Virus genome (UHGV): UHGV-0823586
Direction: 5' to 3' (one strand)
Length of the DNA stretch: 12,846 nucleotides
DNA from: a virus
In this document: in pieces, positions 1 through 12,846 of the stretch
Position numbering within the stretch: position 1 is the stretch's first letter
Layout: the number at the start of each line of letters is the position of its first letter
Program-made: the position numbers and the translations under genes
The notes under the pieces: generated by a model
Told to the model about the DNA's origin: nothing
Database searches by the model: none
The model's input: the letters and a program-made list of their open reading frames with translations, nothing else

Positions 1-1
1 G

Positions 2-40
2 CTGACTATTTATCAAATAGATAACCTTGCTAATAGTCAG
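2..40. repeat. Nested inverted repeat at the window edge: outer 9-bp arms CTGACTATT (2-10) and AATAGTCAG (32-40), inner arms TTATC (10-14) and GATAA (20-24)
   Basis: Read directly: the reverse complement of 2-10 equals 32-40, and an inner 5-bp inverted repeat with a 5-nt spacer lies inside the loop. The region is AT-rich and upstream of the 499-aa ORF. A possible sigma70-like -10 TAATAT lies at 59-64. Confidence 0.3.
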
Positions 41-96
41 ATGAAAAGCAAAGGAAGTTAATATTAGAACAGCTTGAGCCAGCTATTAATAACACC

Positions 97-1596
97 ATGG
101 CCCAGCTATATAACGGTGAGGTTCCAGATTATATACCGGCTCAGGAGACCATCATCAGGGGGTATGGAAAAAACGCAGATAAAATAATCAATCAACTGGA
201 TATAGCGATTGATAACGCGAGAATATTCCAGGCAATTCAGTATTTGCCTCCTTCTCAGCAGCAAGAAGAAATGCAGAAAGTGAAGCCTGAGGTTAACGAT
301 CCTCACTATGCGTTAAAACTCGATGCTTACGGAAAATTGTCTGCATTGCTTCAGAGATCAAATGAAGCAATTCAGGCGCAACGGGATTCACGCAGATTCA
401 ATGAGGCGCTGACAATAGGTGAAAAATTAGACCCAAGCAACAAGTCAATGCAGAAAGCTGCTGATTACACAGAAATGGCGCAGAACTTTCGTATTAATGA
501 TGTCTCCACTCATGATGGGGTTGTTCGGCTTGTGGCTCAGACTGGCATAATGCCTTCGCAGGTCATCACGCAGCTTTCAGCAGTATCCCGATCCAGCAAT
601 CAGGAAGTGGTTAAAAATGCGGCGGAACTGTTTAGTCGGTTATATGAAACAGACAATGCATCTATTGGAAATATGCCGAAGGATATGCAGGGTTTTTATC
701 TGACTGTTAAGCAACTAACTGATTCTGGCATGTCTGCTGATGCGGCTATCGAGCAGGCGCAGAACCTTACGTACAACCAGACCGATGCTCTTAAAGCTCA
801 ATTGGCATCAACGCAGAGTTCAAAAGAGTACAAAAATGATCGCAGCAAGGCGATGAATTCTGCTGTCAGCAATATGGCGCAGTGGTTCCGTTGGGATCCG
901 TCTGCGGATGACCAGACGCCGGAAGCAGCTAGATTCCGTAATGACTATCAGACGCTGTATGACATTAACTACCGCGTTGCTGGTGGTAACGCTGACGTAG
1001 CGAAGCAAATGACCAACCAGCAGATAGCCCGCACCTGGAGTATCAGCGAGGTTAACGGAGAAGCGCAGTTTATGAAATATGCACCGGAGGCGCTTTATCA
1101 ATATGGGCCGTCAGGCTGGCAGGCGGCGCAGTGGAAAGCTGAAAAAGAACGGCTGATGTACGGTGAGCGCAAAGAGATTATAACAACCAGTCCGACGTTG
1201 CTTGGGATCACGTCAGGTAATGCTCCTGTAGTTGAGACAAAAACCCCTGAGAGTCGTATTAATGGAGAATTATTCATAACCCCTGACGTGTTAACACCCC
1301 GTAATGGTGATTACGCCATTATGGTAAGAACTAAGGATAAAAATGGCATCGATCGGGTCCAGCCGTTTTATAACAAACATGGGCGTCCTATGCGTTGGGA
1401 ACCATCACTAGAAGATTGGGAACCTTATAAGGAAATGCAGCAGGAACGGGAGCAGTACGAGCAGGAAGAAATTATGCGTGGACAGGCTATACGAAACTTC
1501 AAAGACAAGCATCGCGCTCTGGATGAGCAGTATCAGCGCCTGCATAACGAACGTATGGACAAATTTAAAGATTACTTTTCGTGGGGATCTAAATAA
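97..1596 (+). CDS. Hypothetical protein, 499 aa, Gln/Glu-rich and probably largely alpha-helical; possibly a virion internal/ejection protein or an accessory gene
   Basis: Long uninterrupted ORF with an ATG at 97 and in-frame stops upstream at 22-24 and 34-36. It has no convincing Shine-Dalgarno sequence. Its stop TAA (1594-1596) overlaps the ATG of the next gene (TAATG). I recognise no enzymatic motif and no P-loop. Confidence 0.55.
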   Translation: MAQLYNGEVPDYIPAQETIIRGYGKNADKIINQLDIAIDNARIFQAIQYLPPSQQQEEMQKVKPEVNDPHYALKLDAYGKLSALLQRSNEAIQAQRDSRRFNEALTIGEKLDPSNKSMQKAADYTEMAQNFRINDVSTHDGVVRLVAQTGIMPSQVITQLSAVSRSSNQEVVKNAAELFSRLYETDNASIGNMPKDMQGFYLTVKQLTDSGMSADAAIEQAQNLTYNQTDALKAQLASTQSSKEYKNDRSKAMNSAVSNMAQWFRWDPSADDQTPEAARFRNDYQTLYDINYRVAGGNADVAKQMTNQQIARTWSISEVNGEAQFMKYAPEALYQYGPSGWQAAQWKAEKERLMYGERKEIITTSPTLLGITSGNAPVVETKTPESRINGELFITPDVLTPRNGDYAIMVRTKDKNGIDRVQPFYNKHGRPMRWEPSLEDWEPYKEMQQEREQYEQEEIMRGQAIRNFKDKHRALDEQYQRLHNERMDKFKDYFSWGSK

Positions 1597-2432
1597 TGCC
1601 AGTTTATGCACAAGCTGAAGATCTTAATAACGGACTGATCCCGTCAGGTAATATTTTGCCGGAACAAACTGGGTTTGATGTTGCCCCTCCGGAAGGGGCT
1701 AATCCTGAGCCATTGCCACCTGAGCCTTCCGTATGGGGGGCTGCAATGCGACAGAACAATATTCTGTCTGGTTTTTTCCGCCCAGCCAGACAGTTTGAAC
1801 CGGTCGAGGGTTATAACCCATATGCTGATAAAAATGAGTTGCACGGTTATGAATACTGGGGGGCGAAATTTGCAGATTCCCGATCGCCAGAGGAAACGGC
1901 GTGGATTAAGCAGCAGATAGATGATGAAAATGAAGACAGACGTTTATTGTCTGATGCTGGCGTAGTTGGAACCATTGCCAGTATTGCTGCGGGAATGGAT
2001 CCGGTTACTGTTGCGTCAATGTTTATTCCCGGTGCTCAAGGAGGGGCACTGGCGCGTATTGGCTCACAGATTGCGATTGGTGCTGCCGGTACAGCATTAA
2101 GCGAGGTTGTACTGAATAATCAGCAAATAACACGCTCATGGGGTGAAAGTGCCGCTCACGTTGCAGCGGGTGCGATGATGAGCGGCGTGTTTGCCAGTGC
2201 TGGTGTTGCGCTTTCGCCATCCGTCCGGGCTGCAGCCACGCGTGAGGTTGCTGATGCTCTTGATAATATGAGCATTACATCAGCGACTGACAGGGCTGCC
2301 GCTTCGCTTTCTGATGGTGGTAGTGTTGGTGCTATGAAAATTGATACAGCGACTCTGGATGATTTAACCCCTGTTTCCGGTGGGTGGGTTGGAAAGGCTG
2401 CATGGAAGATTTCGGATAAATTCTTCTTCTGA
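1596..2432 (+). CDS. Hypothetical protein, 278 aa, with Gly/Ala-rich hydrophobic segments (glycine-zipper-like); possibly membrane-active
   Basis: ATG at 1596 is coupled to the upstream stop, with GGGGA 8 nt upstream. The central region (GVVGTIASIAAGMDPVTVASMFIPGAQGGALARIGSQIAIGAAGTALS ... AAGAMMSGVFASAGVALS) has repeated small-residue spacing typical of membrane-inserting segments. The stop TGA is at 2430-2432, inside the 3' end of the convergent minus-strand gene. Confidence 0.55.
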   Translation: MPVYAQAEDLNNGLIPSGNILPEQTGFDVAPPEGANPEPLPPEPSVWGAAMRQNNILSGFFRPARQFEPVEGYNPYADKNELHGYEYWGAKFADSRSPEETAWIKQQIDDENEDRRLLSDAGVVGTIASIAAGMDPVTVASMFIPGAQGGALARIGSQIAIGAAGTALSEVVLNNQQITRSWGESAAHVAAGAMMSGVFASAGVALSPSVRAAATREVADALDNMSITSATDRAAASLSDGGSVGAMKIDTATLDDLTPVSGGWVGKAAWKISDKFFF

Positions 2433-3467
2433 TATTTCACCTTTACGTGGATCACCGACTTTGGCGATCAGTTTATCCACGTTACCCATCCCCCAGTTAT
2501 ATGCTGCTCCGGCCAATATTTCGGAGCCGTACTTACCATACAGTTGATTTACATAGTCACTGGCAAGCATTTCATGCTGTTGTTCGTCCGTAGGGTTGTA
2601 TTCAACGCCACGTTTGGCCGCCAGTTCTTTCCCTGTGCCCGGCATTAACTGGTATTTCCCCTGGGCCCTCTCTCCAGAAGATGTTTTCGGTCCTTCAAGA
2701 ATACTACCATCAGGATTAAAATGACGATCACCTGATTCAACAAGGCGTATGGCACGCATGTCCATGCCTCCAGAATCATTTTTCTGAAACTGACCATTTA
2801 ACCATCCTTCCGGATTAGCAGCGGCATAATTCTTCGCCCGCATTTCTGTGGCACTGCGATCATCACTTTCTATTTCTTCCAGAATGCGTTCTTGTGACCA
2901 TCCCCTGGCTGCTCCATATCTGGCAATGGCTACCATTCTGGAATTTCTGGCTAAAGTGGCAGTTTGCGGGTCATTCCAGGCATCCGCTTCATTTTGTATC
3001 CATAATTTTCTCGTTGCCTGATATTGCTCATCTTCATAGGCATTTGTCTGCCCTATCTCATGTCTGAGAACTCCAGTACTGAACTGAATTTTCTGTGTTC
3101 TGGCTTGTTGCAAAAACATATTTCTTGCTGCTTCATCAGTCAATGAAGCAGCTATTTCTTCCACATCCTGATCAAATCCAGATATGTACTCTTGCCCCTT
3201 ACCAATCGCATTTTTGCCTTGTTGTGCATAAAAACCGGTTTGAGGGTTATAAAGACGTTCATTGCTGCGCTGATTAAGCTGAAGGATGGCATCCTGAGAC
3301 AATGCAACATTCGCTTTCTGCCTGGCTTCACCATATGCCACCGCATACTGATCTGCGACATTCGCCAGCACCTGACCTGCTTGAGGAACATCGAAGGTCT
3401 GAAAACCACCGGTTTGCACACCACGACTTTGCACCTGGCGTCCGGATGTAGTAGGAACAACAGGCAT
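2364..3467 (-). CDS. Internal virion protein with a C-terminal soluble lytic transglycosylase (SLT-like) domain
   Basis: Motifs read in the translation: catalytic-type E-S-G (RLVESGDRHF), then GKYQLMPGT, then AYNWG, in the order expected for family-1 lytic transglycosylases. The first codon in the ORF track is TTG; the ATG is at 3465-3467 and overlaps the upstream stop (TGATG). It sits where the T7 gp16 transglycosylase would be expected. Confidence 0.7.
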   Translation of the reverse strand: MPVVPTTSGRQVQSRGVQTGGFQTFDVPQAGQVLANVADQYAVAYGEARQKANVALSQDAILQLNQRSNERLYNPQTGFYAQQGKNAIGKGQEYISGFDQDVEEIAASLTDEAARNMFLQQARTQKIQFSTGVLRHEIGQTNAYEDEQYQATRKLWIQNEADAWNDPQTATLARNSRMVAIARYGAARGWSQERILEEIESDDRSATEMRAKNYAAANPEGWLNGQFQKNDSGGMDMRAIRLVESGDRHFNPDGSILEGPKTSSGERAQGKYQLMPGTGKELAAKRGVEYNPTDEQQHEMLASDYVNQLYGKYGSEILAGAAYNWGMGNVDKLIAKVGDPRKGEISEEEFIRNLPCSLSNPPTGNRG

Positions 3468-4033
3468 CAATAACCTCCTATTTTGAATCGGGAGTCAGAA
3501 TTCATAAAACCTGAGTTAGATAACATTGGCGTGTTTCCTTGCTTACTAATCGGATTGATACTTCCGCCACCCAACTTATATGCACCGTATGCTTTTAGTG
3601 GTGCCGTTAACAAAGTGCTGGTCATCGATGATTTAGCAGCCGACTGAGCAGCAGCCCCCTGTGCCTGAGCATTCATTCCCTGAACCTGATACCCATATGC
3701 CTCACGCTGAGCATTATTCACTGTCGTTAACGCATCAAGAGTGCCGAACTGAGCATTATCCGCAAAAACGTCAAGAGCTGTTCCGCTACTTAATTCCGCA
3801 CCGGTAGCCCCCATAGTGGCCGCCGCAGTGCCTGAGCGTTGACGCATTTCACGACGACGCTGATCCGCTTCAATATTCCCACGATTGATTGAATCCTGTG
3901 CCTGAGCTTCAGCAATTTCAGCATTCCGATCAGCTATGGCTGACTGGTATTTTGCCTGCTTGCTCTGGCTGTACATTGACGCGGCTGTGGATGCCACTGT
4001 GACGGCAACCAAAGCGATGGCTGGGTTACACAT
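3467..4033 (-). CDS. Putative internal virion/ejection protein with an N-terminal transmembrane segment (T7 gp14 positional analogue)
   Basis: ATG at 4031-4033 overlaps the upstream stop (TAATG). The N-terminus is hydrophobic (NPAIALVAVTVASTAAS) and is followed by a Gln/Ala-rich, probably helical region. The gene lies between the tubular proteins and the transglycosylase protein. Confidence 0.55.
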   Translation of the reverse strand: MCNPAIALVAVTVASTAASMYSQSKQAKYQSAIADRNAEIAEAQAQDSINRGNIEADQRRREMRQRSGTAAATMGATGAELSSGTALDVFADNAQFGTLDALTTVNNAQREAYGYQVQGMNAQAQGAAAQSAAKSSMTSTLLTAPLKAYGAYKLGGGSINPISKQGNTPMLSNSGFMNSDSRFKIGGY

Positions 4034-4497
4034 TATTTTCTCTCCATGTGAAATCTGTGGAAATTAAGACCAAGAGCACCATAAGGCGCGGCTTCTTCAA
4101 GCCTGAATCCAAGCCAGTGCAGCCATGCTTTGGCAACATGGTTTCGCTCGTCGACGTAGTTTTCCAAGCGCGGATAAACTGCCAGCATCTGCTGCAATAC
4201 AGGGCGGCAGTGGCGCAGAAATGTCTTCTGATATTTTTCAATACGGCTGGTCCCGACCAGCCATGGCGTACCATTGCCACCGATCATTGACGCCGGAGAT
4301 ACACCAAACATGGTTACCAGCTCTCCGTTCGCGAACCCTGACCAGGCCATAGTCGCAGTGCGCAGACCAACACGCAGCGCATCTTCGGTAGTCATCAGCG
4401 ATACCGCATACAGTTCGTCAATATCAGCCTGACGAACATCCGGCAAAATCATCTGAAGATGCTCTTCGGTAGCGGGAATAATTCGAACATCGATCAT
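4033..4497 (-). CDS. Hypothetical virion-associated protein, 154 aa (T7 gp13 positional analogue)
   Basis: ATG at 4495-4497 overlaps the stop of the 823-aa gene (TGATG). The call rests on position in the operon only; I recognise no motif. Confidence 0.5.
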   Translation of the reverse strand: MIDVRIIPATEEHLQMILPDVRQADIDELYAVSLMTTEDALRVGLRTATMAWSGFANGELVTMFGVSPASMIGGNGTPWLVGTSRIEKYQKTFLRHCRPVLQQMLAVYPRLENYVDERNHVAKAWLHWLGFRLEEAAPYGALGLNFHRFHMERK

Positions 4498-6968
4498 CAG
4501 AATCCCCCAACAGTAAGGCGAGGAATAACGGCAAGAACAGACAGCGGCAACGGGTCAAGCTGACGGATTTTTACACGTCCGTTTTTGCCCCAGTTACTGT
4601 CCAGTTTCACTTCTACTTTTCCGGTAGCATCATCAACAGGATCATCGTAGAACTCGAATTCACGCTGTGGATATTCGTACCATTTACCGCCGGGCGTAGT
4701 CGCCCAGATGCCGCGGCTGGCATTCACAACCAGAGTAACGGACGGGATCACCTGTTTTTTGTCCAGCAGCGTTTCCTGTCCGTTAATGTTGATATCCAGT
4801 GTTTCGAATTCAGCAGTTATTGGCAGGCCGATGTGAACTACAGCCCCCGGAGATTCCAGCGTGACGGCACCTCCGGAAACCACTTTCTGTGGTTCCACGT
4901 TCGCATCAGAGAGAATGTTTACGGTCTGGCCTTCAAGATGAGACAGGCCTCCAAATGTCCGGCGCGCCATCTGCCAGTTCGTGGTGGCCACATTCCTGAG
5001 GGATGGCGGGACGTTCCTGTTAGCACGAACCACTACAGCGGTATTGCTGGTTACAGAAATAATGTCGCAACGTAATTCTTTTGACACCTCATCACCAGTA
5101 TCAGGATCAGTTCCGGTATAAGGGAACTGTAGTTGCGCGCCGACATCACTACTGGTGAAGTACGCACCACCAGAAACACTGATTGTATATTCCGCGCGGT
5201 AATCCCATTCACCAGAACCACCAGTGATGGTCATCGTTCTGTCAGACGTATTTCTTCCATCATAGCTAAGGCCAGAATCAACAAAGAAAGCATCTTCATC
5301 GCTGGTAAATAAACGGCTGGACAGTCGCTCGATGTATCTCACTGTTTGCCCGTTAACGGTTCGGTTAACGACGAAATACACCGCATCTTCATTTCCTTCG
5401 CTGATACTGCATGTGCTTTCATATTTTCCGGTACTGGATTGTGGTGCCCATGCAAAAACCTGCTGATCACGCAAATAGGTCATCACCAGTAATTTACCGT
5501 CATCACGAATGCAGAAGGCGCTGGAGTAAGGGACAATAGAGAAGCACCAGTCAACAATACTGTGCTTCTGAAAAAGATGATTGGCAAGGATGGTCAGGTC
5601 GTTCCCCTGATAGCCGTCAACATCGAATGAGTAGGCCAGATCACGGACAACACTGCCTTTCTCCTGGACGAACAGAGCAATATTCGCCACGGCAATTGGT
5701 GGGACATTGCTCGAGCCATTTGATCCCTGAGAGCTGAATGCAAATGATGATGGGGTAAGCACTTTGTTCTGGTCGCCAGTGATGACGTACTCACCTCCGG
5801 AAGTCAGCGCCACCAGCGAACCAACATCAATCAGGTGACGGATCTCATTAACCTGACGCCCGGCATAGGTGTAGATAATTCTGTCGTCATCCTGCGTAGG
5901 ATTGCTTTTGCCAAAATCCTTATAATCCCCGGTACGGCTGGCCCAGATAGTCTGAGGAAACGCAGTCGATGCGGCGAAGTAAAGACGTTGTTGATAATAA
6001 ACAACAGTGCCAGGATAACCATTAACACTGTTCCAGGCATATTTAGCCCATTTATAGCTGGCATTATCCTCGCCAACTACCTGCGAAGGGATATAGGAAA
6101 TCACCTCGGCAGTTGCAGTAGTTCCATTTGCAGCAGTGATACGGGCAATGCCAAAACCACTGTGCAGATATTCCCACTCAATGCCAGTATCATCATCACC
6201 GGATCCGCCCCAGCCATCCCATGATGTGCCTTCTGTATGCGAAGGGCGCAAAGTACCTGTTTTGCCTGCTTTAACGGCGCGATAGTAGTTACTGTCTGCT
6301 CGGCGAATATCGCCAATCGACGTACTCTTACTGGTTTCCCATACCGGCACAGAATCCACTGCAGGCTGTTCCAGATAGAACAATTTGCCTACCTGCTCCG
6401 CGCCAAAAATAGAGGCGCTTGCCGTTAGCGTAATTGTCCCGGTGCTGGCGCTGGCATAAACCGTCACTGACTCGTCAATATTGATATCTTCAAATGGCCC
6501 GTTCTTCGTTACCACATCAACCAGTTGCCAGTTGTCATGCGCATAGCGGCGCAACTCTTTCGGCGGGTATGCCGGATGAACCAGCGTAAGCACGTCTGCG
6601 CTTTGCGTGAATTTAATTCGGAACAGATCGGCTTCAGTATATGGCGTGGAAATTTCATAAATAACATTGCTGCTGTTCAGCACCAACGCACCATCTTTGA
6701 TAACGCGCATGTACTGGTGTCCGAACTCCAGAGCATAAGTCTGAACCGTCGAGAACTGGAACGGGATCAGGCGGCATTTCCGATTTGGATATTTGGCGGC
6801 ACCGACAAAACGCGTACCAGGTCGATTCTCAACGCCGCCATACTGCCGCACGATAAAGTTATCGCACTTGCGCAATGCCACCTGGTACTTCGCCATGTCG
6901 ATACGTCCGTACAACGACGGTCCAATCTCACCACCAGCAAAGCTGGGCTGGATCCAACTGATAGCCAT
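4497..6968 (-). CDS. Tail tubular protein B / nozzle (T7 gp12-like)
   Basis: The 823-aa ORF directly follows the gp11-like gene with a TGATG overlap. Its size is close to T7 gp12 (about 794 aa) and the gp11-gp12 order is conserved. The assignment is by size and synteny, not by sequence alignment. Confidence 0.65.
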   Translation of the reverse strand: MAISWIQPSFAGGEIGPSLYGRIDMAKYQVALRKCDNFIVRQYGGVENRPGTRFVGAAKYPNRKCRLIPFQFSTVQTYALEFGHQYMRVIKDGALVLNSSNVIYEISTPYTEADLFRIKFTQSADVLTLVHPAYPPKELRRYAHDNWQLVDVVTKNGPFEDINIDESVTVYASASTGTITLTASASIFGAEQVGKLFYLEQPAVDSVPVWETSKSTSIGDIRRADSNYYRAVKAGKTGTLRPSHTEGTSWDGWGGSGDDDTGIEWEYLHSGFGIARITAANGTTATAEVISYIPSQVVGEDNASYKWAKYAWNSVNGYPGTVVYYQQRLYFAASTAFPQTIWASRTGDYKDFGKSNPTQDDDRIIYTYAGRQVNEIRHLIDVGSLVALTSGGEYVITGDQNKVLTPSSFAFSSQGSNGSSNVPPIAVANIALFVQEKGSVVRDLAYSFDVDGYQGNDLTILANHLFQKHSIVDWCFSIVPYSSAFCIRDDGKLLVMTYLRDQQVFAWAPQSSTGKYESTCSISEGNEDAVYFVVNRTVNGQTVRYIERLSSRLFTSDEDAFFVDSGLSYDGRNTSDRTMTITGGSGEWDYRAEYTISVSGGAYFTSSDVGAQLQFPYTGTDPDTGDEVSKELRCDIISVTSNTAVVVRANRNVPPSLRNVATTNWQMARRTFGGLSHLEGQTVNILSDANVEPQKVVSGGAVTLESPGAVVHIGLPITAEFETLDININGQETLLDKKQVIPSVTLVVNASRGIWATTPGGKWYEYPQREFEFYDDPVDDATGKVEVKLDSNWGKNGRVKIRQLDPLPLSVLAVIPRLTVGGF

Positions 6969-7573
6969 CAGGACAACCTCGCAATGGTAAACTCGTCAAC
7001 CGGTGGCTGTGGTTCCTGTGATTCATTCTGGCTATGCGAGCCAGCACTAAGAATCACGCGATTGTACATATTGAGGGCAAACGTACCGAGGTCTGCATTC
7101 CCAGTCAGCGCCATGTTAATAGCTGCCGCAAGACGCCAGGCCAACGCCTCCATAAAAATGGCATCAAACATGTTCACATCTGTAACGCGAGAGACATACT
7201 TGAGCCATGCCTGAGGCTGGTCTGTGTAGATCAACTTTCCTGTTCCGTTGGTGTCTGCACCAACTTCGTACTGAACGCGCATTGCTGCTGTTGGATTGCG
7301 TACACCAGGAAGCATAATTTCAGTAATGCGCAGACAATCTGACGGGTACTGGTACGCATATTCCCAGTCAGGCGGTGGATTGCTCGTATCTGCAAGCGCC
7401 ACGCGTTTGGTAGCAAAGTTCCAGTCAAAATCAGAAAGCACAGTATCACGGCAGGCCTCAAAGTGCAGCGAACATTCCCCCGCTTCCTTGCTGGCTTCCG
7501 TCAGGCTGTTAATGCTGCGGCTGTTGCCAATATTGGACAGCGCACGATTACAGATCTCTACTACAGAGGCCAT
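6968..7573 (-). CDS. Tail tubular protein A / adaptor (T7 gp11-like)
   Basis: About 201 aa from the ATG at 7571-7573 (the ORF track starts at a GTG 3 nt upstream). A GGAGGT Shine-Dalgarno lies 5 nt upstream. The N-terminal pattern (ICNRALSNIGNSRSINSLTE ... WNFATKRVAL) resembles the N-terminus of T7 gp11 as I recall it. Size and position before the large nozzle gene match. Confidence 0.65.
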   Translation of the reverse strand: MASVVEICNRALSNIGNSRSINSLTEASKEAGECSLHFEACRDTVLSDFDWNFATKRVALADTSNPPPDWEYAYQYPSDCLRITEIMLPGVRNPTAAMRVQYEVGADTNGTGKLIYTDQPQAWLKYVSRVTDVNMFDAIFMEALAWRLAAAINMALTGNADLGTFALNMYNRVILSAGSHSQNESQEPQPPVDEFTIARLS

Positions 7574-7896
7574 CACTCACCTCCGTTACCGTACAGAGTT
7601 TCAGCCGCTGATTTTTCTACATCCCCGGAAACAGGAGCGATCGCCATATCAGTGATCTGCAGATCGGCGCTGCGATTAACGCCATCGTCAGTTTCTCTGG
7701 CAGACAGGCCTCGAATAACAGCCTTTGCAGTTATCATCACTTCCGTTCCGACGCCCTTAGGTTGCGCCTTCAGCTTATTCAATGTGTCGTTATTCAGCGT
7801 GATGCACAGCCCCCACGGGTATTCATCGCGAGTTCTGGTTTCTCCGCTCTCATCCTGGTAGCTGTCAGTGCCGGTTTTGAGGTTTACGAGTTCCAT
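7573..7896 (-). CDS. Hypothetical small protein, about 107 aa, first gene after the terminator hairpin
   Basis: ATG at 7894-7896 with AGGAG 5 nt upstream; the ORF track starts at a GTG at 7902. Its stop overlaps the start of the gp11-like gene (TGATG). Confidence 0.5.
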   Translation of the reverse strand: MELVNLKTGTDSYQDESGETRTRDEYPWGLCITLNNDTLNKLKAQPKGVGTEVMITAKAVIRGLSARETDDGVNRSADLQITDMAIAPVSGDVEKSAAETLYGNGGE

Positions 7897-7912
7897 ATAC
7901 ACTCCTGCAATA

Positions 7913-7930
7913 AAGGGGCCGAAGCCCCTT
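7913..7930 (-). terminator. Rho-independent terminator hairpin on the minus strand: 7-bp stem AAGGGGC/GCCCCUU with a UUCG tetraloop, followed by UAUU
   Basis: Read directly: 7913-7919 pairs perfectly with 7924-7930 around loop 7920-7923. On the minus-strand RNA the stem is followed by a U-rich run (UUUAUU, counting the closing stem Us). It lies between the stop of the 111-aa gene (7947) and the Shine-Dalgarno of the 107-aa gene. Confidence 0.6.
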
Positions 7931-7946
7931 GTCTGATCCGCGAGGC

Positions 7947-8282
7947 TTACACGCCCAGTTCTTTACGCTTATCTGCGATCTTCTCGCGGAGCGTTTCGGC
8001 TTTGGCGTTATGGTGTGGCTTCTGGTTAAAGAGCAATTCGTACTCTTCACGGAGCTTATCCAGTTCACCATCATCTGACACATCGTTGATGATTTTGGTG
8101 CTGGTTGCTGCCATTGACACCTTTCCTGCAACTTTTGCTTTTGCCTGTCTGGCTGCATCGTTAACAGGTTCCAGTGCGCTACCAGGCTCACCTTCGTATT
8201 CGATTTCTGCCCCCTCCGGCCACAGAGTGTTATGGATATGAGAGAGGCGCAGAACGCGGTATCTTGGTTTCTCACCTGACAT
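7947..8282 (-). CDS. Hypothetical small protein, about 111 aa
   Basis: ATG at 8280-8282 with AAGGTG 6 nt upstream; the ORF track starts at a GTG at 8291. Charged, helical-looking C-terminus. No motif recognised. Confidence 0.5.
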   Translation of the reverse strand: MSGEKPRYRVLRLSHIHNTLWPEGAEIEYEGEPGSALEPVNDAARQAKAKVAGKVSMAATSTKIINDVSDDGELDKLREEYELLFNQKPHHNAKAETLREKIADKRKELGV

Positions 8283-8292
8283 CAATATCACC

Positions 8293-8730
8293 TTAACCAG
8301 TTACTTTTGAGCGGATCGGATACGGCGTATTGGCATCAACATCCAGACTGATACCCGCAGTGAATTTGCCGGCCGTTAGTGGGCCAGTTGCGACGGAGTA
8401 GTTAACACGCAGATATCGCTGAACACCGGCAGGCACCTTTGCAGAAACAACTCGTTTACCTGCTGTCAGGGTATCCTTTGCCAGTGCGCCACTATCATAA
8501 ATAGTGGACCATGAGCTGTTATTCTCACTCGTCTGCAACTGGATGTTTACAGTTTCCTCACCACTTGCCGTGGCGGCTTCGTTAACCAGCACCCAAAACT
8601 CAAGCGGATAACCCACGCCGATATCACGACGTTTTCCGTCAATTGGACCGAGATCGATTACGTCAGTAGAAGCCGCGGTATTCGTAACCGCCTGAGCTTC
8701 GGAGAACATCAACAGTTTGTCGGTGATCAT
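8293..8730 (-). CDS. Hypothetical Ser/Thr-rich, probably beta-rich protein, 145 aa; possible capsid decoration or head-associated protein
   Basis: ATG at 8728-8730 with GGAG 7 nt upstream. It lies immediately downstream of the capsid gene. The composition (TAG/TGP/SVATG repeats) suggests an Ig-like or decoration-type fold, but this is inference only. Confidence 0.5.
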   Translation of the reverse strand: MITDKLLMFSEAQAVTNTAASTDVIDLGPIDGKRRDIGVGYPLEFWVLVNEAATASGEETVNIQLQTSENNSSWSTIYDSGALAKDTLTAGKRVVSAKVPAGVQRYLRVNYSVATGPLTAGKFTAGISLDVDANTPYPIRSKVTG

Positions 8731-8745
8731 CTTCTTTCTCCATTA

Positions 8746-8765
8746 GTGGGTCTGTTACGACCCAC
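8746..8765 (-). promoter_or_regulatory. Intercistronic stem-loop (7-bp stem GTGGGTC/GACCCAC, 6-nt loop) between the capsid gene and the next gene; possible RNA processing or stabilising element
   Basis: Perfect inverted repeat 8746-8752 / 8759-8765 inside the 51-nt gap after the capsid stop. It has no U-tract, so it is not a canonical terminator. Confidence 0.4.
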
Positions 8766-8781
8766 AGGTTAATAACAGGCG

Positions 8782-9774
8782 TTACACCACGCGGGCTTCT
8801 GTTTCCAGAAGCGCATCAGTTTCACGGATTGGTACACCACGGAATGAAGTCCACCACTCGCCTTCTGTCTCTTTTACGCTGATCGCCAGAGATGTTTTCT
8901 CCAGAGATTGCAGATCAAGAGCCTGGCCTACAGTGCGGTTCATGTAGAACACCGGGCGACCCATGCCACGATTTGGAATGCGATGCAGTGCTTTAACCAT
9001 CAACTTCGCAATATCTGCGGCAGAGGAAGGTTCTGAAAGATTGCTGACATCGATGTTTGCAATGCGAACAACATAACGCCAGTCACGCAGAGCAAGTCCG
9101 TTGTCCCATTTGTAATGGGTACGGTAGCCTTCGTACTTGCCGCCATTCGCATCTTCCAGTGTCACCTGGCCTTTATCTTCCATCTGGATGCCAGCCTTCT
9201 GCCCTTTCGGGAAGATGCCATGCACGGTGTTTTCGCCCCACACCACTAACCAGATTGAGGTGTTATCTGTACCCGTGCCACCAGCATCAATGATGTTCTG
9301 AGCATTACCCGCAGACAGGCTGGAATAGCGGGAGGACAGTCCCATAAACTGCTGAGGGTTAACGCTGGAATCACCATAAAACAGTGTCTGCGCCATCTGC
9401 TGATTCATCGCTTCAATAAATGCGCGGTCTTCAGACAGGCGGAATTCGGCAGTATTACCGTTCAGATCAGCCAGTGACTTATCGACTTCAGCATAGGTTT
9501 CCAGCATGCCAACGTAATCGGTTACCTGCACTGTGGTTGATTTGCTTGGCTGTACGCCATAGTTCAGCAAACGCCAGGTAGCTGAAGGTAAACCAGAACG
9601 AATGGTGGTTCGGTGTCCGGTAGGAAGGTTCCCTTCGACAAAAGGCATATCCTGAAGGATCGGGTTTGTTTGACCGAGAAGCTCGATAATCTTATCGACT
9701 TTCCCGTTTGGATCGACGCGCTTACCCCAGTCAGCCAGCGTTAGCGCAGTTAAGCCTTTAACAGCCATTGTCAT
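8782..9774 (-). CDS. Major capsid protein (putative)
   Basis: The 330-aa ORF follows the scaffold-like gene and precedes a stem-loop, the classic scaffold-then-capsid arrangement. The true start may be the second ATG at 9766-9768, which has better spacing to GAGAGG. The call is by size and synteny; the sequence does not obviously resemble T7 gp10. Confidence 0.65.
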   Translation of the reverse strand: MTMAVKGLTALTLADWGKRVDPNGKVDKIIELLGQTNPILQDMPFVEGNLPTGHRTTIRSGLPSATWRLLNYGVQPSKSTTVQVTDYVGMLETYAEVDKSLADLNGNTAEFRLSEDRAFIEAMNQQMAQTLFYGDSSVNPQQFMGLSSRYSSLSAGNAQNIIDAGGTGTDNTSIWLVVWGENTVHGIFPKGQKAGIQMEDKGQVTLEDANGGKYEGYRTHYKWDNGLALRDWRYVVRIANIDVSNLSEPSSAADIAKLMVKALHRIPNRGMGRPVFYMNRTVGQALDLQSLEKTSLAISVKETEGEWWTSFRGVPIRETDALLETEARVV

Positions 9775-9782
9775 TTCCTCTC

Positions 9783-10478
9783 TTATTTGCCATAGAGCAC
9801 TTCGGCCGCACTACGCTGGCCTTCATTACCACCGGTGACCATGCCATCTTCAGACATCGCCTTTCCGATTCTCACGAACGTTTTGACCAGATCAGGGTGA
9901 TTACCCAGCCCGGTGGTGTTCAGATATTCTTTGAGTTCAGGTGTCCCGAACTGGTCAAGCGCACGCTGTGCGACGCTAAGGTTAGAAATCAACTTGCCGC
10001 CACCGATTTCTTTGTCAGCTTTTACATCCGCAGCCCACTGCTCGGTTGTTTTCTGCCAGGCTTCTGCCTGGCGCTGCTGAACACCTGCCAGAATCTTCGG
10101 ATAAGCATCAACCAGCTTTTGCGCTTGCTCGTTGGTCAGGTTAAGTTCTCGCGCCACCGGCTCGAATTCCTTCAACGCTTCTGTATCCAGCTCTACGCCT
10201 TCGGCAGCCTGAAACTCGTACTTCTCAGGCGCACCCTCTGGTTTATCGCCGTCCTTTTTTTCACCCTGCTTATCGTTTTCAGGCTTTTTGTCATCAGCAG
10301 GTTTATCGCCATCAGCAACAGGTTGTGGCTTATCACCTTCCGGTTGTGATGGATCACCAACTGGAGCAGGGTTATCACCTGCAGGCGCTGACGGTTCTGA
10401 CGCAGCCGGAGCTGCTCCACCATCGACTGGTTGCTCATTGCAAAGACGGCGATACAGCAAACGCTCAAATAAATTCAT
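9783..10478 (-). CDS. Scaffolding protein (putative), with a Pro/Asp/Lys/Glu-rich low-complexity N-terminal region and a helical C-terminal domain
   Basis: ATG at 10476-10478 with AGGAG 5 nt upstream; the ORF track starts at a GTG at 10484. It lies between the portal and capsid genes. The acidic low-complexity linker (PAPAASEPSAPAGDNPAPVGDPSQPEGDKPQP...) is typical of scaffold proteins. Confidence 0.55.
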   Translation of the reverse strand: MNLFERLLYRRLCNEQPVDGGAAPAASEPSAPAGDNPAPVGDPSQPEGDKPQPVADGDKPADDKKPENDKQGEKKDGDKPEGAPEKYEFQAAEGVELDTEALKEFEPVARELNLTNEQAQKLVDAYPKILAGVQQRQAEAWQKTTEQWAADVKADKEIGGGKLISNLSVAQRALDQFGTPELKEYLNTTGLGNHPDLVKTFVRIGKAMSEDGMVTGGNEGQRSAAEVLYGK

Positions 10479-10480
10479 GA

Positions 10481-10777
10481 TCACTCCTGTTCACTGGCCT
10501 CTTTGGCCATCTTCAAATACTGTTCAGGGCAATGCGCCATAACGCGCTGAAACAGTTCCAGCGCCAGATTGCGTTGCCCCTCATTAAATGCCATTGCCAT
10601 AGCGTCCATCGGTGAGATAGCGGAAAACACACGGCCTTTCTCCAGCACCGACCAGACAACGCGACGCCCCTGTTCACTGCTCATGACAAAGCAAATGTCA
10701 TCAATTTCACGCTGTGCCATGTCACGTTGCTTACGGGCGTTTTCTTCTTTCAGTTGATCGTCTTCGTAATCTGTCAT
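10481..10777 (-). CDS. Hypothetical small acidic protein, 98 aa, between portal and scaffold
   Basis: ATG at 10775-10777 overlaps the portal stop (ATGA). Charged and helical-looking. Function unknown. Confidence 0.5.
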   Translation of the reverse strand: MTDYEDDQLKEENARKQRDMAQREIDDICFVMSSEQGRRVVWSVLEKGRVFSAISPMDAMAMAFNEGQRNLALELFQRVMAHCPEQYLKMAKEASEQE

Positions 10778-12452
10778 TGTGATTGCCCACCCTGACCACT
10801 AACTGCATTCGCCATAGCTGACAAAACACTCGGATCCGAAGTTTTAGCTTCGCTTAGCGTCTTGGCACCCTGTGCCGCCGCCATCCCCATCGCCATCATT
10901 TGTTGCTGCTGTTGTTGCTGTGCCCGTTGCTGGCGAGCCTGCTCAACCTGTTCCTGCGGAACAATGACGGTTGGAGACACTCCGGACATATCAGCGAATG
11001 CATCGATCGCCTGATCAACGTTGAGTTTGTCGAGAGCTTCTGGTTTCGCTTGCGCAAGTTGACCAATGAAGTTGACCGTAGACGCCAGACTGGACAGGCC
11101 GATAGACTTCTGCGCCTGAGCCATGACGGAAATGTATTCGACCTTCAGGGGCATACCTTCCATCACGTCAGGCGGTGGCGGCAGCATGTTTTTACGCACC
11201 ATCATCGAGAAAGCGCGGTCAATGAGAGGATTAAGACATTCGTCGTTCAGACGCTCCAGAACCGGCCCAACATCAGAAGTTTTTCTTCTTTCATTTCGAT
11301 CACCGCTTCAACAGGCATCGAGCGGGTATTGATGTTCTGCAACATCATGAACAGATCGACAAAGTAGGCGCTGTTAATGATTTGACGGGTGTCCTGAATG
11401 TCTGCCACCAAATCTGCTGTACTGGGGTTAACCAGATAAGCAGGCCTGAAACCATCCTGACCAGTAATCAGATCGATATACGTGATGTCGCCAGGAAGAA
11501 GGGAGGCACGCTGATTCTTGAGGGAAGTCGGAGCAACCATCGGCGGATTGGTGGCTTTATCAATCAACTGCGACTTGCGCTTCTGGAGAAGCTGCAATGC
11601 CTTAACAGGTCCAAGCGCCAGCATACCCGGGCATGATGATCCATAAACATCTTCGCCGTTAACTTCCCAGCGCGGAGCCATAATTGGAAACTCATCGAAT
11701 CCGGACTCACGCAACAACTTGTCGTTATCGCCACCAACCTCGTAATAAACCGATTTGAATGGCTTGTTCTTGCTATCCAGCTTCGATGTATCGCGGTCAA
11801 TGTTCGGGTAAACCGAATGCATCACTTCAATCCACTTCTCGTAGGTTCCGCTTTCCCACATGCTTTTTACGGATTCGCTGACGTTATTTAGCCCGAACTC
11901 CTGAACAAGCTGACGAACAGTCATAGAGAACTTGCGAAAACAGGTGTCCACACTGCCACGAGGTGAGTTAGCCAGGTAGTAACTGCCTATCGGGAATGGC
12001 ATTGTGCGAATGATGTCCTCGTCATCCTCCAGCACTGCCATTGCACCAGTGCTGTATGTGCCGAGGCTTCCGTATAACTGCGGCAGCGACTGATAGAGAT
12101 TCGACTTATTGAACATATCGTTCATGCGGTTCTGCACCGCCTCAAGCCACAACTTAACAGGGCCATAATCCATCATTTCAGGATCTGGCGTAGCCAGGCG
12201 AAACCACGGACGCGCGGGGCTTGTGATGCCTGACATCATGCCGCTGGCGAGAGTGCGCGCCGCCATAGTCCCGGTCGAATCAATAATGCGTGTATTGCGT
12301 CGATCGTTACGGTTGACCTCAGAAGTCAGAAAGCGGGAACCACGCGGGTTGATGTAATCACTCAACTCGCGCCAGTGCGGCTCGAACGACTGACGCTCGC
12401 TTTCAAGTTGTGCGAACTGTTTGTTCAATCGCTCTTTAGTTGTTTCCGCCAT
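10774..12452 (-). pseudogene. Portal (head-to-tail connector) protein, T7 gp8-like, interrupted by a frameshift near 11280-11284
   Basis: Two adjacent ORFs (12452..11247, 401 aa; 11205..10774, 143 aa) belong to one gene. The downstream frame is open from 11307, and a single extra A in the A5 run (T5 on the plus strand, 11280-11284) joins them into one protein of about 545 aa. The C-terminal part (QQRAQQQQQQQMMAMGMAAAQG...) resembles the T7 gp8 C-terminus as I recall it. ATG at 12450-12452 with GGAG upstream. Confidence 0.8.
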
Positions 12453-12466
12453 TTCAATGACTCCGG

Positions 12467-12673
12467 TTACTGACCAAGCAGCGTTTTACCGCTGGTATTA
12501 GCAGTTGATGTGTCGCCCTGAGAACCGGTAAGCAGCGTAGAACTACGACCAGCAGCAGCGCGACGGCGACGAGTTTCTTCGTCGCGGGCATCAACAACGG
12601 CGGCATCCTGCTCCTGTGGTGCTGCCTGAACTTCTGGTGTTGCAGGCACTGATGGTGAGCTACCCATGCACAT
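12467..12673 (-). CDS. Hypothetical small protein, 68 aa, Ala/Arg-rich low complexity, immediately upstream of the portal gene
   Basis: ATG at 12671-12673 with GGAG 8 nt upstream. The spacer sequence is identical to the one in front of the portal gene. Preferred over the overlapping 79-aa ORF (12454..12693), which starts at TTG and has a His/Cys/Leu-rich, noncoding-like composition. Confidence 0.4.
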   Translation of the reverse strand: MCMGSSPSVPATPEVQAAPQEQDAAVVDARDEETRRRRAAAGRSSTLLTGSQGDTSTANTSGKTLLGQ

Positions 12674-12741
12674 ATCAATGACTCCGTACGCAATTAAATT
12701 ATTACCAATTTAACCACATATGATTTATTTATCGTAGACAG

Positions 12742-12805
12742 TTGACATTTAACGCGCGAATTATTACCTTTCAGGTAACCAAAGAGTTCATTCCGGTTAC
12801 TAACC
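12742..12805. promoter_or_regulatory. Putative control region upstream of the minus-strand operon: TTGACA hexamer (12742-12747, plus strand) and GGTNACC-type palindromes (GGTAACC 12774-12780; GGTTACTAACC 12795-12805)
   Basis: AT-rich noncoding region. The palindromes and hexamer were read directly from the sequence. Promoter direction and function are not established. Confidence 0.25.
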
Positions 12806-12846
12806 TGACTGGCTTGTCGTTAAATTGAACAGGTGGAGTGAGCTTT

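What the first reader, a model, noticed from the sequence alone, without database searches (positions are those of the whole stretch)
97..2432. Convergent, translationally coupled gene pair of unknown function; the second protein has glycine-zipper-like hydrophobic segments
The two plus-strand genes (499 aa and 278 aa, joined by a TAATG overlap) run against the whole structural operon, which is unusual for T7-like modules where all genes share one strand. The 499-aa gene lacks a recognisable Shine-Dalgarno sequence. The 278-aa protein carries Gly/Ala-rich hydrophobic stretches with small-residue periodicity, a feature of membrane-inserting or pore-forming proteins. It could be an ejection/channel protein, a superinfection-exclusion or lysis-related factor, or a horizontally acquired accessory gene. 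I recognise no enzymatic motif in either protein.
Basis: partly seen in the sequence, partly recalled or inferred. Interest (0 to 1): 0.55.

Follow-up and report, generated by a model that had tools for sequence, protein, structure and literature searches.

The report
Inverted fragments of phage ejection-protein genes
The two "opposite-strand genes" are not an accessory module. They are a 2.4-kb piece of the phage's own DNA-ejection (internal virion) protein genes, turned around by a single inverted join that breaks both genes, so the finding is ordinary.

Summary
The ORFs exist exactly as described: 97-1596 (499 aa) and 1596-2432 (278 aa), with a TAATG overlap and no Shine-Dalgarno sequence before 97. 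They are not independent genes.

The window is an epsilon15/phiV10-like prophage structural module, closest to Escherichia phage TL-2011b.
- Window 2398-12846 is the reverse complement of TL-2011b 14751-25178.
- Window 1-2407 is TL-2011b 25231-27638 in forward orientation (99.3% identical; 99.9% to E. coli N25).

In TL-2011b, and in every relative whose layout was examined, everything lies on one strand:
- a T7-gp14-family protein;
- a 905-aa SLT-domain internal virion protein (gp37);
- a 1004-aa gp16-like internal virion protein (gp38).

The window pieces map onto these genes as follows:
- The 499-aa ORF is gp37 residues 407-905 and starts at an internal Met.
- The 278-aa ORF is gp38 residues 1-271 plus 7 junction-derived residues.
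- The minus-strand 368-aa ORF is gp37 residues 1-355 (SLT domain) plus 12 junk residues.

The join (ATGGAA microhomology, 2402-2407) was not found in 5,426 E. coli genomes, IMG/VR, GTDB representative genomes or JGI metagenomes. Two unique 1-nt deletions also frameshift gp37 and the portal gene.

Verdict: broken known genes, in either a decaying prophage or a chimeric assembly. Low interest.

The parts
1..61 (+). Remnant of the SLT internal-virion protein gene (TL-2011b gp37 codons 375-387, LTIYQIDNLANSQ). A 1-nt deletion between window 42 and 43 shifts the frame and gives a stop at 59-61.
   Evidence: Alignments to TL-2011b and KC-Dl-1 show a single missing A. Every relative aligned over this stretch carries the extra base.
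97..1596 (+). 499-aa ORF. It equals gp37 residues 407-905, the C-terminal domain of the SLT-domain internal virion protein, and starts at an internal Met.
   Evidence: 4 amino-acid differences from TL-2011b gp37 407-905. phrog_1044 positions 427-900 of 900, E 4e-211. DNA identity is 99.3% to TL-2011b and 99.9% to E. coli N25.
1596..2432 (+). 278-aa ORF. It equals residues 1-271 of the 1004-aa gp16-like internal virion protein (TL-2011b gp38) plus 7 junction-derived residues (ISDKFFF). It contains the Gly/Ala-rich hydrophobic segments.
   Evidence: 4 substitutions over residues 1-271, then divergence. phrog_342 positions 203-416 of 1235, E 4.5e-48. Full-length gp38 covers phrog_342 positions 203-1225.
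2402..2407 (.). Inversion-type junction. ATGGAA is shared by both parental sequences (CTGcATGGAA against CTGATGGAA, 9 of 10 with a one-base bulge). It joins TL-2011b position 27638 (+) to position 25178 (-).
2364..3467 (-). N-terminal fragment of the same SLT internal-virion protein: gp37 residues 1-355, including the SLT domain, plus 12 junction-derived residues (CSLSNPPTGNRG).
   Evidence: Pfam SLT PF01464 at 35.2 bits (cut-off 21.3), residues 261-343. phrog_1044 positions 1-358.
3467..4033 (-). Intact T7-gp14-family virion core protein, the first gene of the ejection-protein set.
   Evidence: Pfam PF24072 T7_gp14 at 32.9 bits (cut-off 27); phrog_418 'internal virion protein' E 2.6e-65.
4033..4497 (-). 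154-aa internal virion protein (phrog_308), upstream neighbour in the same translationally coupled operon.
   Evidence: phrog_308 E 1.8e-62.

Best explanation
Window 1-2407 is a piece of the phage's own ejection-protein (internal virion protein) operon that now lies in inverted orientation next to the rest of that operon.

In the intact phage the order on one strand is:
- a gp14-family protein;
- a 905-aa protein with an N-terminal SLT lytic-transglycosylase domain;
- a 1004-aa gp16-like protein whose N-terminal quarter carries Gly/Ala-rich hydrophobic helices.

By analogy with T7 gp14/gp15/gp16 (inferred, not shown here), these proteins are packaged in the head and ejected at infection. They would build the trans-envelope DNA channel, with the SLT domain cutting peptidoglycan and the hydrophobic segments entering the inner membrane.

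In this window one inverted join at 2402-2407 (6-nt microhomology) cuts the SLT protein gene after codon 355 and the gp16-like gene after codon 271. The 499-aa and 278-aa ORFs are therefore a C-terminal and an N-terminal gene fragment. The fragments keep their native TAATG coupling. The first has no ribosome-binding site, and no promoter is recognisable upstream of it. They are most likely non-functional remnants.

Whether the join arose in vivo (microhomology-mediated inversion in a decaying prophage) or in vitro (amplification or assembly chimera) cannot be decided from the window. I rate the two about equally.
For: Shown:
- Window 1-2407 equals TL-2011b 25231-27638 on the + strand (99.3%). 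Window 2398-12846 equals the reverse complement of 14751-25178.
- TL-2011b, E. coli N25 and E. coli KC-Dl-1 annotate one-strand 905-aa SLT and 1004-aa genes there. A 75%-identical relative (Logan contig L006) has a 901-aa SLT gene followed on the same strand by 271-aa and 706-aa ORFs. I read those two ORFs as one roughly 1000-aa gene split by a frameshift.
- PHROG and Pfam assignments: phrog_1044, phrog_342 'internal virion protein with endolysin domain', PF24072 T7_gp14 and PF01464 SLT, the two Pfam hits both above their curated cut-offs.
- The C-terminal part of gp38 shows tblastn similarity to annotated internal virion or transglycosylase proteins of phiKMV-like phages.
- In every comparison locus that holds both parts, the two window parts lie on opposite strands relative to the window, 52 nt apart.
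- None of the 516 E. coli genomes that match window 1-4100 holds it in one piece.
- 27 IMG/VR contigs carry the wild-type sequence across the breakpoint and none carries the junction.
- There are no promoter-like sites in 1-2700, against 4.0 +/- 2.0 expected from shuffles.
- The gp14-gp15-gp16 synteny and roles come from PMC8954989.
Against: - The second breakpoint of a reciprocal inversion would lie 52 nt to the left of window position 1. It is not in the window, so 'inversion' is inferred from one junction only.
- Function of the intact proteins rests on family annotation and synteny. There is no solved-structure relative by sequence, and the structure prediction failed (pLDDT 42).
- Expression of the fragments from an unseen promoter left of the window cannot be excluded.
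Confidence: 0.9

Rival explanations
1. The inverted join is not biological. It is an amplification chimera (for example from multiple displacement amplification) or a long-read or assembly chimera, and the source phage or prophage has the normal collinear genes.
For: - The junction is unique. It was not found in 5,426 complete E. coli genomes or the phage collection. It was also absent from IMG/VR, GTDB representative genomes and JGI metagenomes.
- The geometry matches the dominant class of MDA chimera: an inverted join between two sites 2.46 kb apart with short complementarity. That study found more than 85% of chimeras inverted and 2-21 nt of complementarity at over 70% of junctions (PMC1855051).
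- Two further single-base deletions, one of them a CCCC to CCC homopolymer contraction, are unique to the window among all relatives aligned. They look like residual sequencing errors. Against N25, the left part differs by only 1 substitution and 1 deletion.
- The window ends 52 nt short of the reciprocal breakpoint, which suggests the sequence end is tied to the rearrangement (inference).
Against: - A 12.8-kb sequence runs cleanly through the junction, with no duplication of flanking sequence.
- Nothing is known here about the sequencing method.
- Real prophages also accumulate frameshifts and rearrangements. N25 and ETEC1749 have IS3 insertions in this same prophage type.
Confidence: 0.5
2. 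The join is a real in vivo inversion (microhomology-mediated end joining or replication template switching) in a cryptic, decaying prophage. The fragments are pseudogenes.
For: - There is 6 nt of perfect microhomology (9 of 10 with a bulge) at the join, far more than a blunt or random join would give.
- Three independent inactivating lesions lie in 12.8 kb: the join, the gp37 frameshift and the portal frameshift. This fits relaxed selection.
- Related prophages are often degraded by IS elements, and some database relatives have a split or truncated SLT gene (PHROG families of 374, 479 and 534 aa).
Against: - It is seen in no other genome.
- The indel-to-substitution ratio against the closest relative of the left part is 1:1, which is high for natural decay.
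- The second junction has not been observed.
Confidence: 0.4
3. A programmed invertible segment (Gin/Hin/Cin-type or shufflon-like) switches between two forms of the ejection proteins.
For: Only the fact of an inverted segment inside a phage structural region.
Against: - No inverted repeats flank the segment in the parental arrangement. The longest inverted-repeat pairs in TL-2011b are chance-like, at 12-22 nt and 70-92% complementarity, and none sits at the breakpoints.
- Both breakpoints are inside coding sequence and destroy two essential genes.
- No recombinase is annotated next to the region in relatives.
- None of the relatives examined shows the flipped state.
Confidence: 0.02
4. One reading: a bona fide convergent accessory module (superinfection exclusion, lysis or horizontally acquired cargo) made of two complete genes. 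A variant is that the truncated fragments have been co-opted for such a role.
For: - The ORFs are open and translationally coupled.
- The second product keeps the hydrophobic N-terminal region of an ejection protein, which could in principle be membrane-active.
Against: - DNA identity of 99.3-99.9% to the interior of intact genes means there has been no independent evolution as separate genes.
- There is no RBS for the first ORF and no promoter-like site.
- The C-terminal tail of the 278-aa product is antisense read-through of the SLT gene.
- Neither exact protein is on record in the collection of public assemblies searched by exact sequence.
Confidence: 0.03

Closest known systems
Escherichia phage TL-2011b gp37 (YP_007001988, 905 aa, annotated endolysin / lytic transglycosylase) and gp38 (YP_007001989, 1004 aa), with the equivalent prophage genes of E. 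coli N25 and KC-Dl-1
   Same: Window 1-2407 is 99.3-99.9% identical in DNA to the 3' 60% of gp37 plus the 5' 27% of gp38, including their native TAATG overlap.
   Different: In the window this piece is in the opposite orientation to the rest of the operon. 52 nt (gp37 codons about 357-374) are missing from the window, and 1 nt is deleted at window 42/43. Neither gene can therefore be translated full length.
T7 ejection proteins gp14 / gp15 / gp16 (the ejectosome), as reviewed in PMC8954989
   Same: The gene order is the same: gp14-family protein, then a large protein, then a larger protein. A lytic transglycosylase domain is present, and the proteins are annotated as internal virion proteins.
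   Different: The transglycosylase domain sits at the N-terminus of the gp15-position protein, not of the gp16-position protein. gp38 matches phrog_342 only from profile position 203 onward, so it lacks the stretch that carries the lytic domain in T7 gp16 (residues 1-156 by the review). There is no detectable sequence similarity to solved structures. Membership in the T7 gp15 family was not shown.
Inverted chimeras of multiple displacement amplification (Lasken and Stockwell 2007, PMC1855051)
   Same: An inverted join between two nearby positions of one molecule, with short complementarity (6 nt here) at the junction.
   Different: There is no read-level or protocol information for this window. 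A consensus sequence, not a single read, carries the join.

Membership tests
gp16-like internal virion (ejection) protein, PHROG phrog_342 | Significant match to the family profile | tested here: met
   278-aa ORF residues 24-232 match profile positions 203-416 of 1235, E 4.5e-48. The parental 1004-aa protein covers 203-1225, E 4.8e-210.
gp16-like internal virion (ejection) protein, PHROG phrog_342 | Full-length architecture of about 1000 aa, including the C-terminal region shared with phiKMV-like internal virion proteins | tested here: not met
   Only residues 1-271 of 1004 are encoded, followed by 7 unrelated residues. The C-terminal region that carries the tblastn similarity (residues about 430-1000) is absent from the window.
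gp16-like internal virion (ejection) protein, PHROG phrog_342 | Same-strand position after the gp14-like and gp15-position genes | tested here: not met
   Opposite strand in the window. Same strand in TL-2011b, N25, KC-Dl-1 and L006 by annotation or gene calls, and in every IMG/VR locus that holds both parts.
gp16-like internal virion (ejection) protein, PHROG phrog_342 | Presence in virions and ejection into the host envelope | not testable with these tools
   Needs virion mass spectrometry or infection assays.
SLT-domain internal virion protein, PHROG phrog_1044 | Covers the whole 900-position profile as one polypeptide with an N-terminal SLT domain | tested here: not met
   The 499-aa ORF covers only positions 427-900. 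Positions 1-358 and the Pfam SLT domain (35.2 bits, cut-off 21.3) are on the minus-strand ORF 2364-3467. TL-2011b gp37 covers 1-900.
Site-specific invertible segment (Gin/Hin/Cin type, shufflon) | Inverted-repeat crossover sites at both ends of the segment | tested here: not met
   No inverted-repeat pair at the two breakpoints in the parental arrangement. Only 6 nt of shared sequence at the join.
Site-specific invertible segment (Gin/Hin/Cin type, shufflon) | Both orientations found among related genomes | tested here: not met
   None of the 516 E. coli genomes that match window 1-4100 holds it in one piece. No hits to the junction in three collection scans, against 27 IMG/VR hits for the wild-type sequence.
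Glycine-zipper / small-xxx-small membrane segment | Repeated G/A/S-xxx-G/A/S motifs inside segments hydrophobic enough to span a membrane | tested here: inconclusive
   There are 15 motif positions and three segments with Kyte-Doolittle maxima of 1.4-1.6. That is moderately hydrophobic and borderline for a classical transmembrane helix. The structure model has too low confidence to help.
Amplification or assembly inverted chimera | Inverted join of nearby sites with 2-21 nt of complementarity, unsupported by independent sequences | tested here: met
   The two sites are 2,460 nt apart with 6 nt of microhomology, and the junction is unique.
Amplification or assembly inverted chimera | Junction supported only by a minority of reads or by chimeric reads | not testable with these tools
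   No reads and no source record are available. Exact look-ups of the window's proteins found nothing.

The most novel reading that the evidence does not exclude
A genuine in vivo inversion has created a new convergent transcription unit. A truncated, membrane-active N-terminal fragment of the gp16-like ejection protein (residues 1-271), and perhaps the C-terminal domain of the SLT protein, would then be expressed from a cryptic prophage. They could interfere with the ejectosome of incoming related phages, as a dominant-negative form of superinfection exclusion.
Probability: 0.03. Interest if true: 0.4.

Novelty: already known. Interest (0 to 1): 0.08.

Why it matters
It matters mainly as a caution. 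An apparent opposite-strand accessory module inside a podophage structural operon turned out to be a flipped piece of the operon itself. A tool-free reader, or a gene caller, would annotate three truncated ORFs as novel proteins.

The sequence also carries two frameshifts, in the portal gene and the SLT protein gene. The element is therefore either a dead prophage or a flawed assembly, and it should not be used as a reference for this phage group.

No new biology is implied unless the inversion is shown to be real and the fragments expressed.

Tried and rejected
- Exact-sequence look-ups of the 278-aa, 499-aa and 367-aa products in the public assembly index found nothing on record.
- Exact scans for the junction in IMG/VR, GTDB representative genomes and JGI metagenomes gave 0 hits.
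- Scans for the gp37 frameshift allele in all three collections, and for the portal frameshift allele in IMG/VR only, gave 0 hits.
- The PDB sequence search found no relative. Its only hit was a ryanodine-receptor chain at E 0.2, which is noise.
- NCBIfam gave no family for the fragments or the full-length parents.
- Pfam on the two + strand ORFs gave only a sub-threshold FlxA hit (15.4 bits, cut-off 26.3), which I rejected.
- The search for homologous proteins returned only fragmentary homologues, at most 85% identical. Two of similar length to the 278-aa ORF (P0002, 276 aa; P0003, 271 aa) might have suggested a natural short form. Their contigs look like frameshift-broken pieces of collinear genes, so I rejected that idea.
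- AlphaFold2 on the 278-aa fragment with a 24-sequence alignment gave pLDDT 42 and pTM 0.32. It was not used for a fold search.
- Rfam gave no hits.
- I looked for flanking inverted repeats that could explain a programmed or assembler-ambiguous inversion and found none.
- I checked whether the IS3 insertion in ETEC1749 sits at the same site. It does not.
- I tested whether the 154-aa neighbour resembles the acetyltransferase at the same position in L006. It does not (E 0.48).
Full report
**Observation.** The window has + strand ORFs at 97-1596 (499 aa) and 1596-2432 (278 aa). Every other long ORF, from 2364 to 12693, is on the minus strand.
- The two ORFs overlap as TAATG. There is no Shine-Dalgarno-like sequence before ATG97, and GGGGA lies 9 nt before ATG1596.
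- GC skew changes sign at about 2400.
- The 278-aa product has three Gly/Ala-rich, moderately hydrophobic segments with Kyte-Doolittle maxima of 1.4-1.6, and many small-xxx-small motifs.

**What the window is.** A megablast search against phage genomes shows an epsilon15/phiV10-like structural module (phiV10, TL-2011b, O157 typing phages, Tyrion, epsilon15).
- The closest phage record is Escherichia phage TL-2011b. Window 2398-12846 is the reverse complement of record 14751-25178. Window 1-2407 is record 25231-27638 in forward orientation at 99.3% identity.
- In TL-2011b all of this lies on one strand, in this order:
  - portal, protease, major capsid protein and two tail proteins;
  - two small internal virion proteins;
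  - gp37, a 905-aa SLT protein at 24110-26827;
  - gp38, 1004 aa, at 26827-29841.
- Prophages in E. coli N25 and KC-Dl-1 have the same one-strand layout, with 905-aa and 1004-aa genes.
- A 75%-identical relative on a Logan contig has a 901-aa SLT gene followed on the same strand by 271-aa and 706-aa ORFs. I read these two ORFs as one gene of about 1000 aa split by a frameshift.

**What the two ORFs are.** Residue by residue:
- The 499-aa ORF is gp37 residues 407-905, with 4 substitutions. It starts at an internal methionine, which explains the missing ribosome-binding site.
- The 278-aa ORF is gp38 residues 1-271, with 4 substitutions, followed by 7 residues (ISDKFFF) read from the antisense of the SLT gene.
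- The TAATG overlap is simply the native gp37/gp38 junction. The other gene junctions of the operon are the same kind of 1-nt stop/start overlap, TAATG or TGATG.
- The minus-strand ORF 2364-3467 is gp37 residues 1-355, including the SLT domain, followed by 12 residues read from the antisense of gp38.

Family searches agree.
- phrog_1044 (900 positions) is matched at 427-900 by the 499-aa ORF and at 1-358 by the minus-strand ORF.
- phrog_342, 'internal virion protein with endolysin domain', is matched at 203-416 of 1235 by the 278-aa ORF and at 203-1225 by full-length gp38.
- The neighbouring gene is a T7-gp14-family protein by Pfam, and the SLT domain also passes its Pfam cut-off.

**The junction.** The two parental sequences read AAGGCTGCATGGAAAGCAGG (gp38 side) and GTGTTTCTGATGGAAGATTT (gp37 side). 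The window reads AAGGCTGCATGGAAGATTTCGG.
- The join therefore lies within a shared ATGGAA (window 2402-2407). With a one-base bulge, the shared stretch is 9 of 10.
- No inverted repeats flank the segment in the parental arrangement.
- If this is a reciprocal inversion, its second breakpoint lies 52 nt to the left of window position 1, so it cannot be seen. Those 52 nt (gp37 codons about 357-374) are absent from the window.

**How common it is.**
- No E. coli complete genome holds window 1-4100 in one piece, although 516 genomes hold the parts.
- Every comparison locus that holds both parts has them on opposite strands relative to the window, 52 nt apart. That is the collinear arrangement.
- Exact scans for the junction found nothing in IMG/VR, GTDB representative genomes or JGI metagenomes. 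In contrast, 27 IMG/VR contigs carry the wild-type sequence across the same breakpoint.
- The junction-specific proteins are not on record.

**Other lesions.** Two single-base deletions are unique to the window among all relatives aligned.
- One lies between positions 42 and 43. It frameshifts the remaining upstream part of gp37 and gives a stop at 59-61.
- One lies at 11265 (CCCC to CCC). It splits the 559-aa portal gene into 401-aa and 143-aa ORFs.
- Against its closest relative (N25), the left 2.4 kb differs by only one substitution and this one deletion.

**Mechanism.** What is shown is the identity of the pieces and the single inverted join. What is inferred concerns function.
- The intact proteins would be the phage's ejectosome, analogous to T7 gp14/gp15/gp16: stored in the head, ejected at infection, and forming a channel across the envelope.
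- The SLT domain would cut peptidoglycan. The Gly/Ala-rich hydrophobic helices of the gp16-like protein would enter the inner membrane.
- This rests on synteny and family annotation, on weak tblastn similarity of the gp38 C-terminal part to annotated internal virion or transglycosylase proteins of phiKMV-like phages, and on the review PMC8954989.
- One difference from T7 is that the transglycosylase domain sits on the gp15-position protein rather than on the gp16-like one.
- In the window these genes are broken. The + strand fragments have no recognisable promoter (0 sites, against 4.0 +/- 2.0 expected from shuffles), and the first has no RBS. They are most likely inert.

**Real inversion or artefact?** The evidence does not decide.
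- For an artefact:
  - The junction is unique.
  - The geometry is an inverted join of sites 2.46 kb apart with short complementarity. This is the dominant class of multiple-displacement-amplification chimera (PMC1855051).
  - Two error-like single-base deletions are present.
  - The sequence ends 52 nt from the expected second breakpoint.
- For a real lesion:
  - The join is homology-guided.
  - There are three independent inactivating changes, as expected in a decaying prophage.
  - This prophage type is frequently degraded. N25 and ETEC1749 carry IS3 insertions, and PHROG has families of 374, 479 and 534 aa that represent split or truncated versions of the SLT gene.

I give about 0.5 to artefact and 0.4 to real. 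Either way, the 'gene pair' consists of fragments of known genes.

**Dead ends.**
- The PDB sequence searches, NCBIfam and Rfam gave nothing.
- The large protein search returned only fragmentary homologues. Two short ones turned out to be frameshift-broken pieces of collinear genes.
- The structure prediction of the 278-aa fragment had pLDDT 42 and was not used.

**Verdict.** The genes are already known, and interest is low.

Noticed in passing
window 11265 (portal gene, minus strand; ORFs 11247-12452 and 10774-11205): A 1-nt deletion (CCCC to CCC relative to TL-2011b and KC-Dl-1) splits the 559-aa portal gene into 401-aa and 143-aa ORFs. The three relatives that span this site each show the corresponding single gap.
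   Followed up: partly
window 42/43: A single A is missing relative to every relative aligned over this stretch (GATAGAAAAG becomes GATGAAAAG). This frameshifts the part of the SLT internal-virion gene that precedes ATG97.
   Followed up: yes
window 3479-4028 (T7-gp14-family gene, minus strand): This stretch has no megablast match to TL-2011b or phiV10 but matches E. coli KC-Dl-1 and several IMG/VR prophages. It is a swapped allele or mosaic boundary inside the ejection-protein operon.
   Followed up: partly
TL-2011b record 25179-25230 (L001 7949-8000), the 52 nt missing just left of window position 1: PHROG holds separate families of 374 aa (phrog_36437) and 534 aa (phrog_38128, starting at Met372 of gp37), and a 479-aa family (phrog_19141). 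The SLT gene is therefore annotated as split or truncated in other database phages. The 374/534 split point falls in these 52 nt, which contain the A-rich run GAAAAAATAAAA.
   Followed up: no
L004 (E. coli ETEC1749) 2059-3272 and L002 (E. coli N25) 1-61: IS3-family insertions disrupt the same prophage type elsewhere: inside the SLT gene in ETEC1749, and next to a truncated capsid-cement gene in N25. Decay of this prophage is common.
   Followed up: partly
Homologous-protein output for window 1596-2429: The search returned only fragmentary homologues at most 85% identical, and none of the 98%-identical full-length 1004-aa proteins that exist in RefSeq E. coli genomes. Close relatives seem to be absent from that index.
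   Followed up: no
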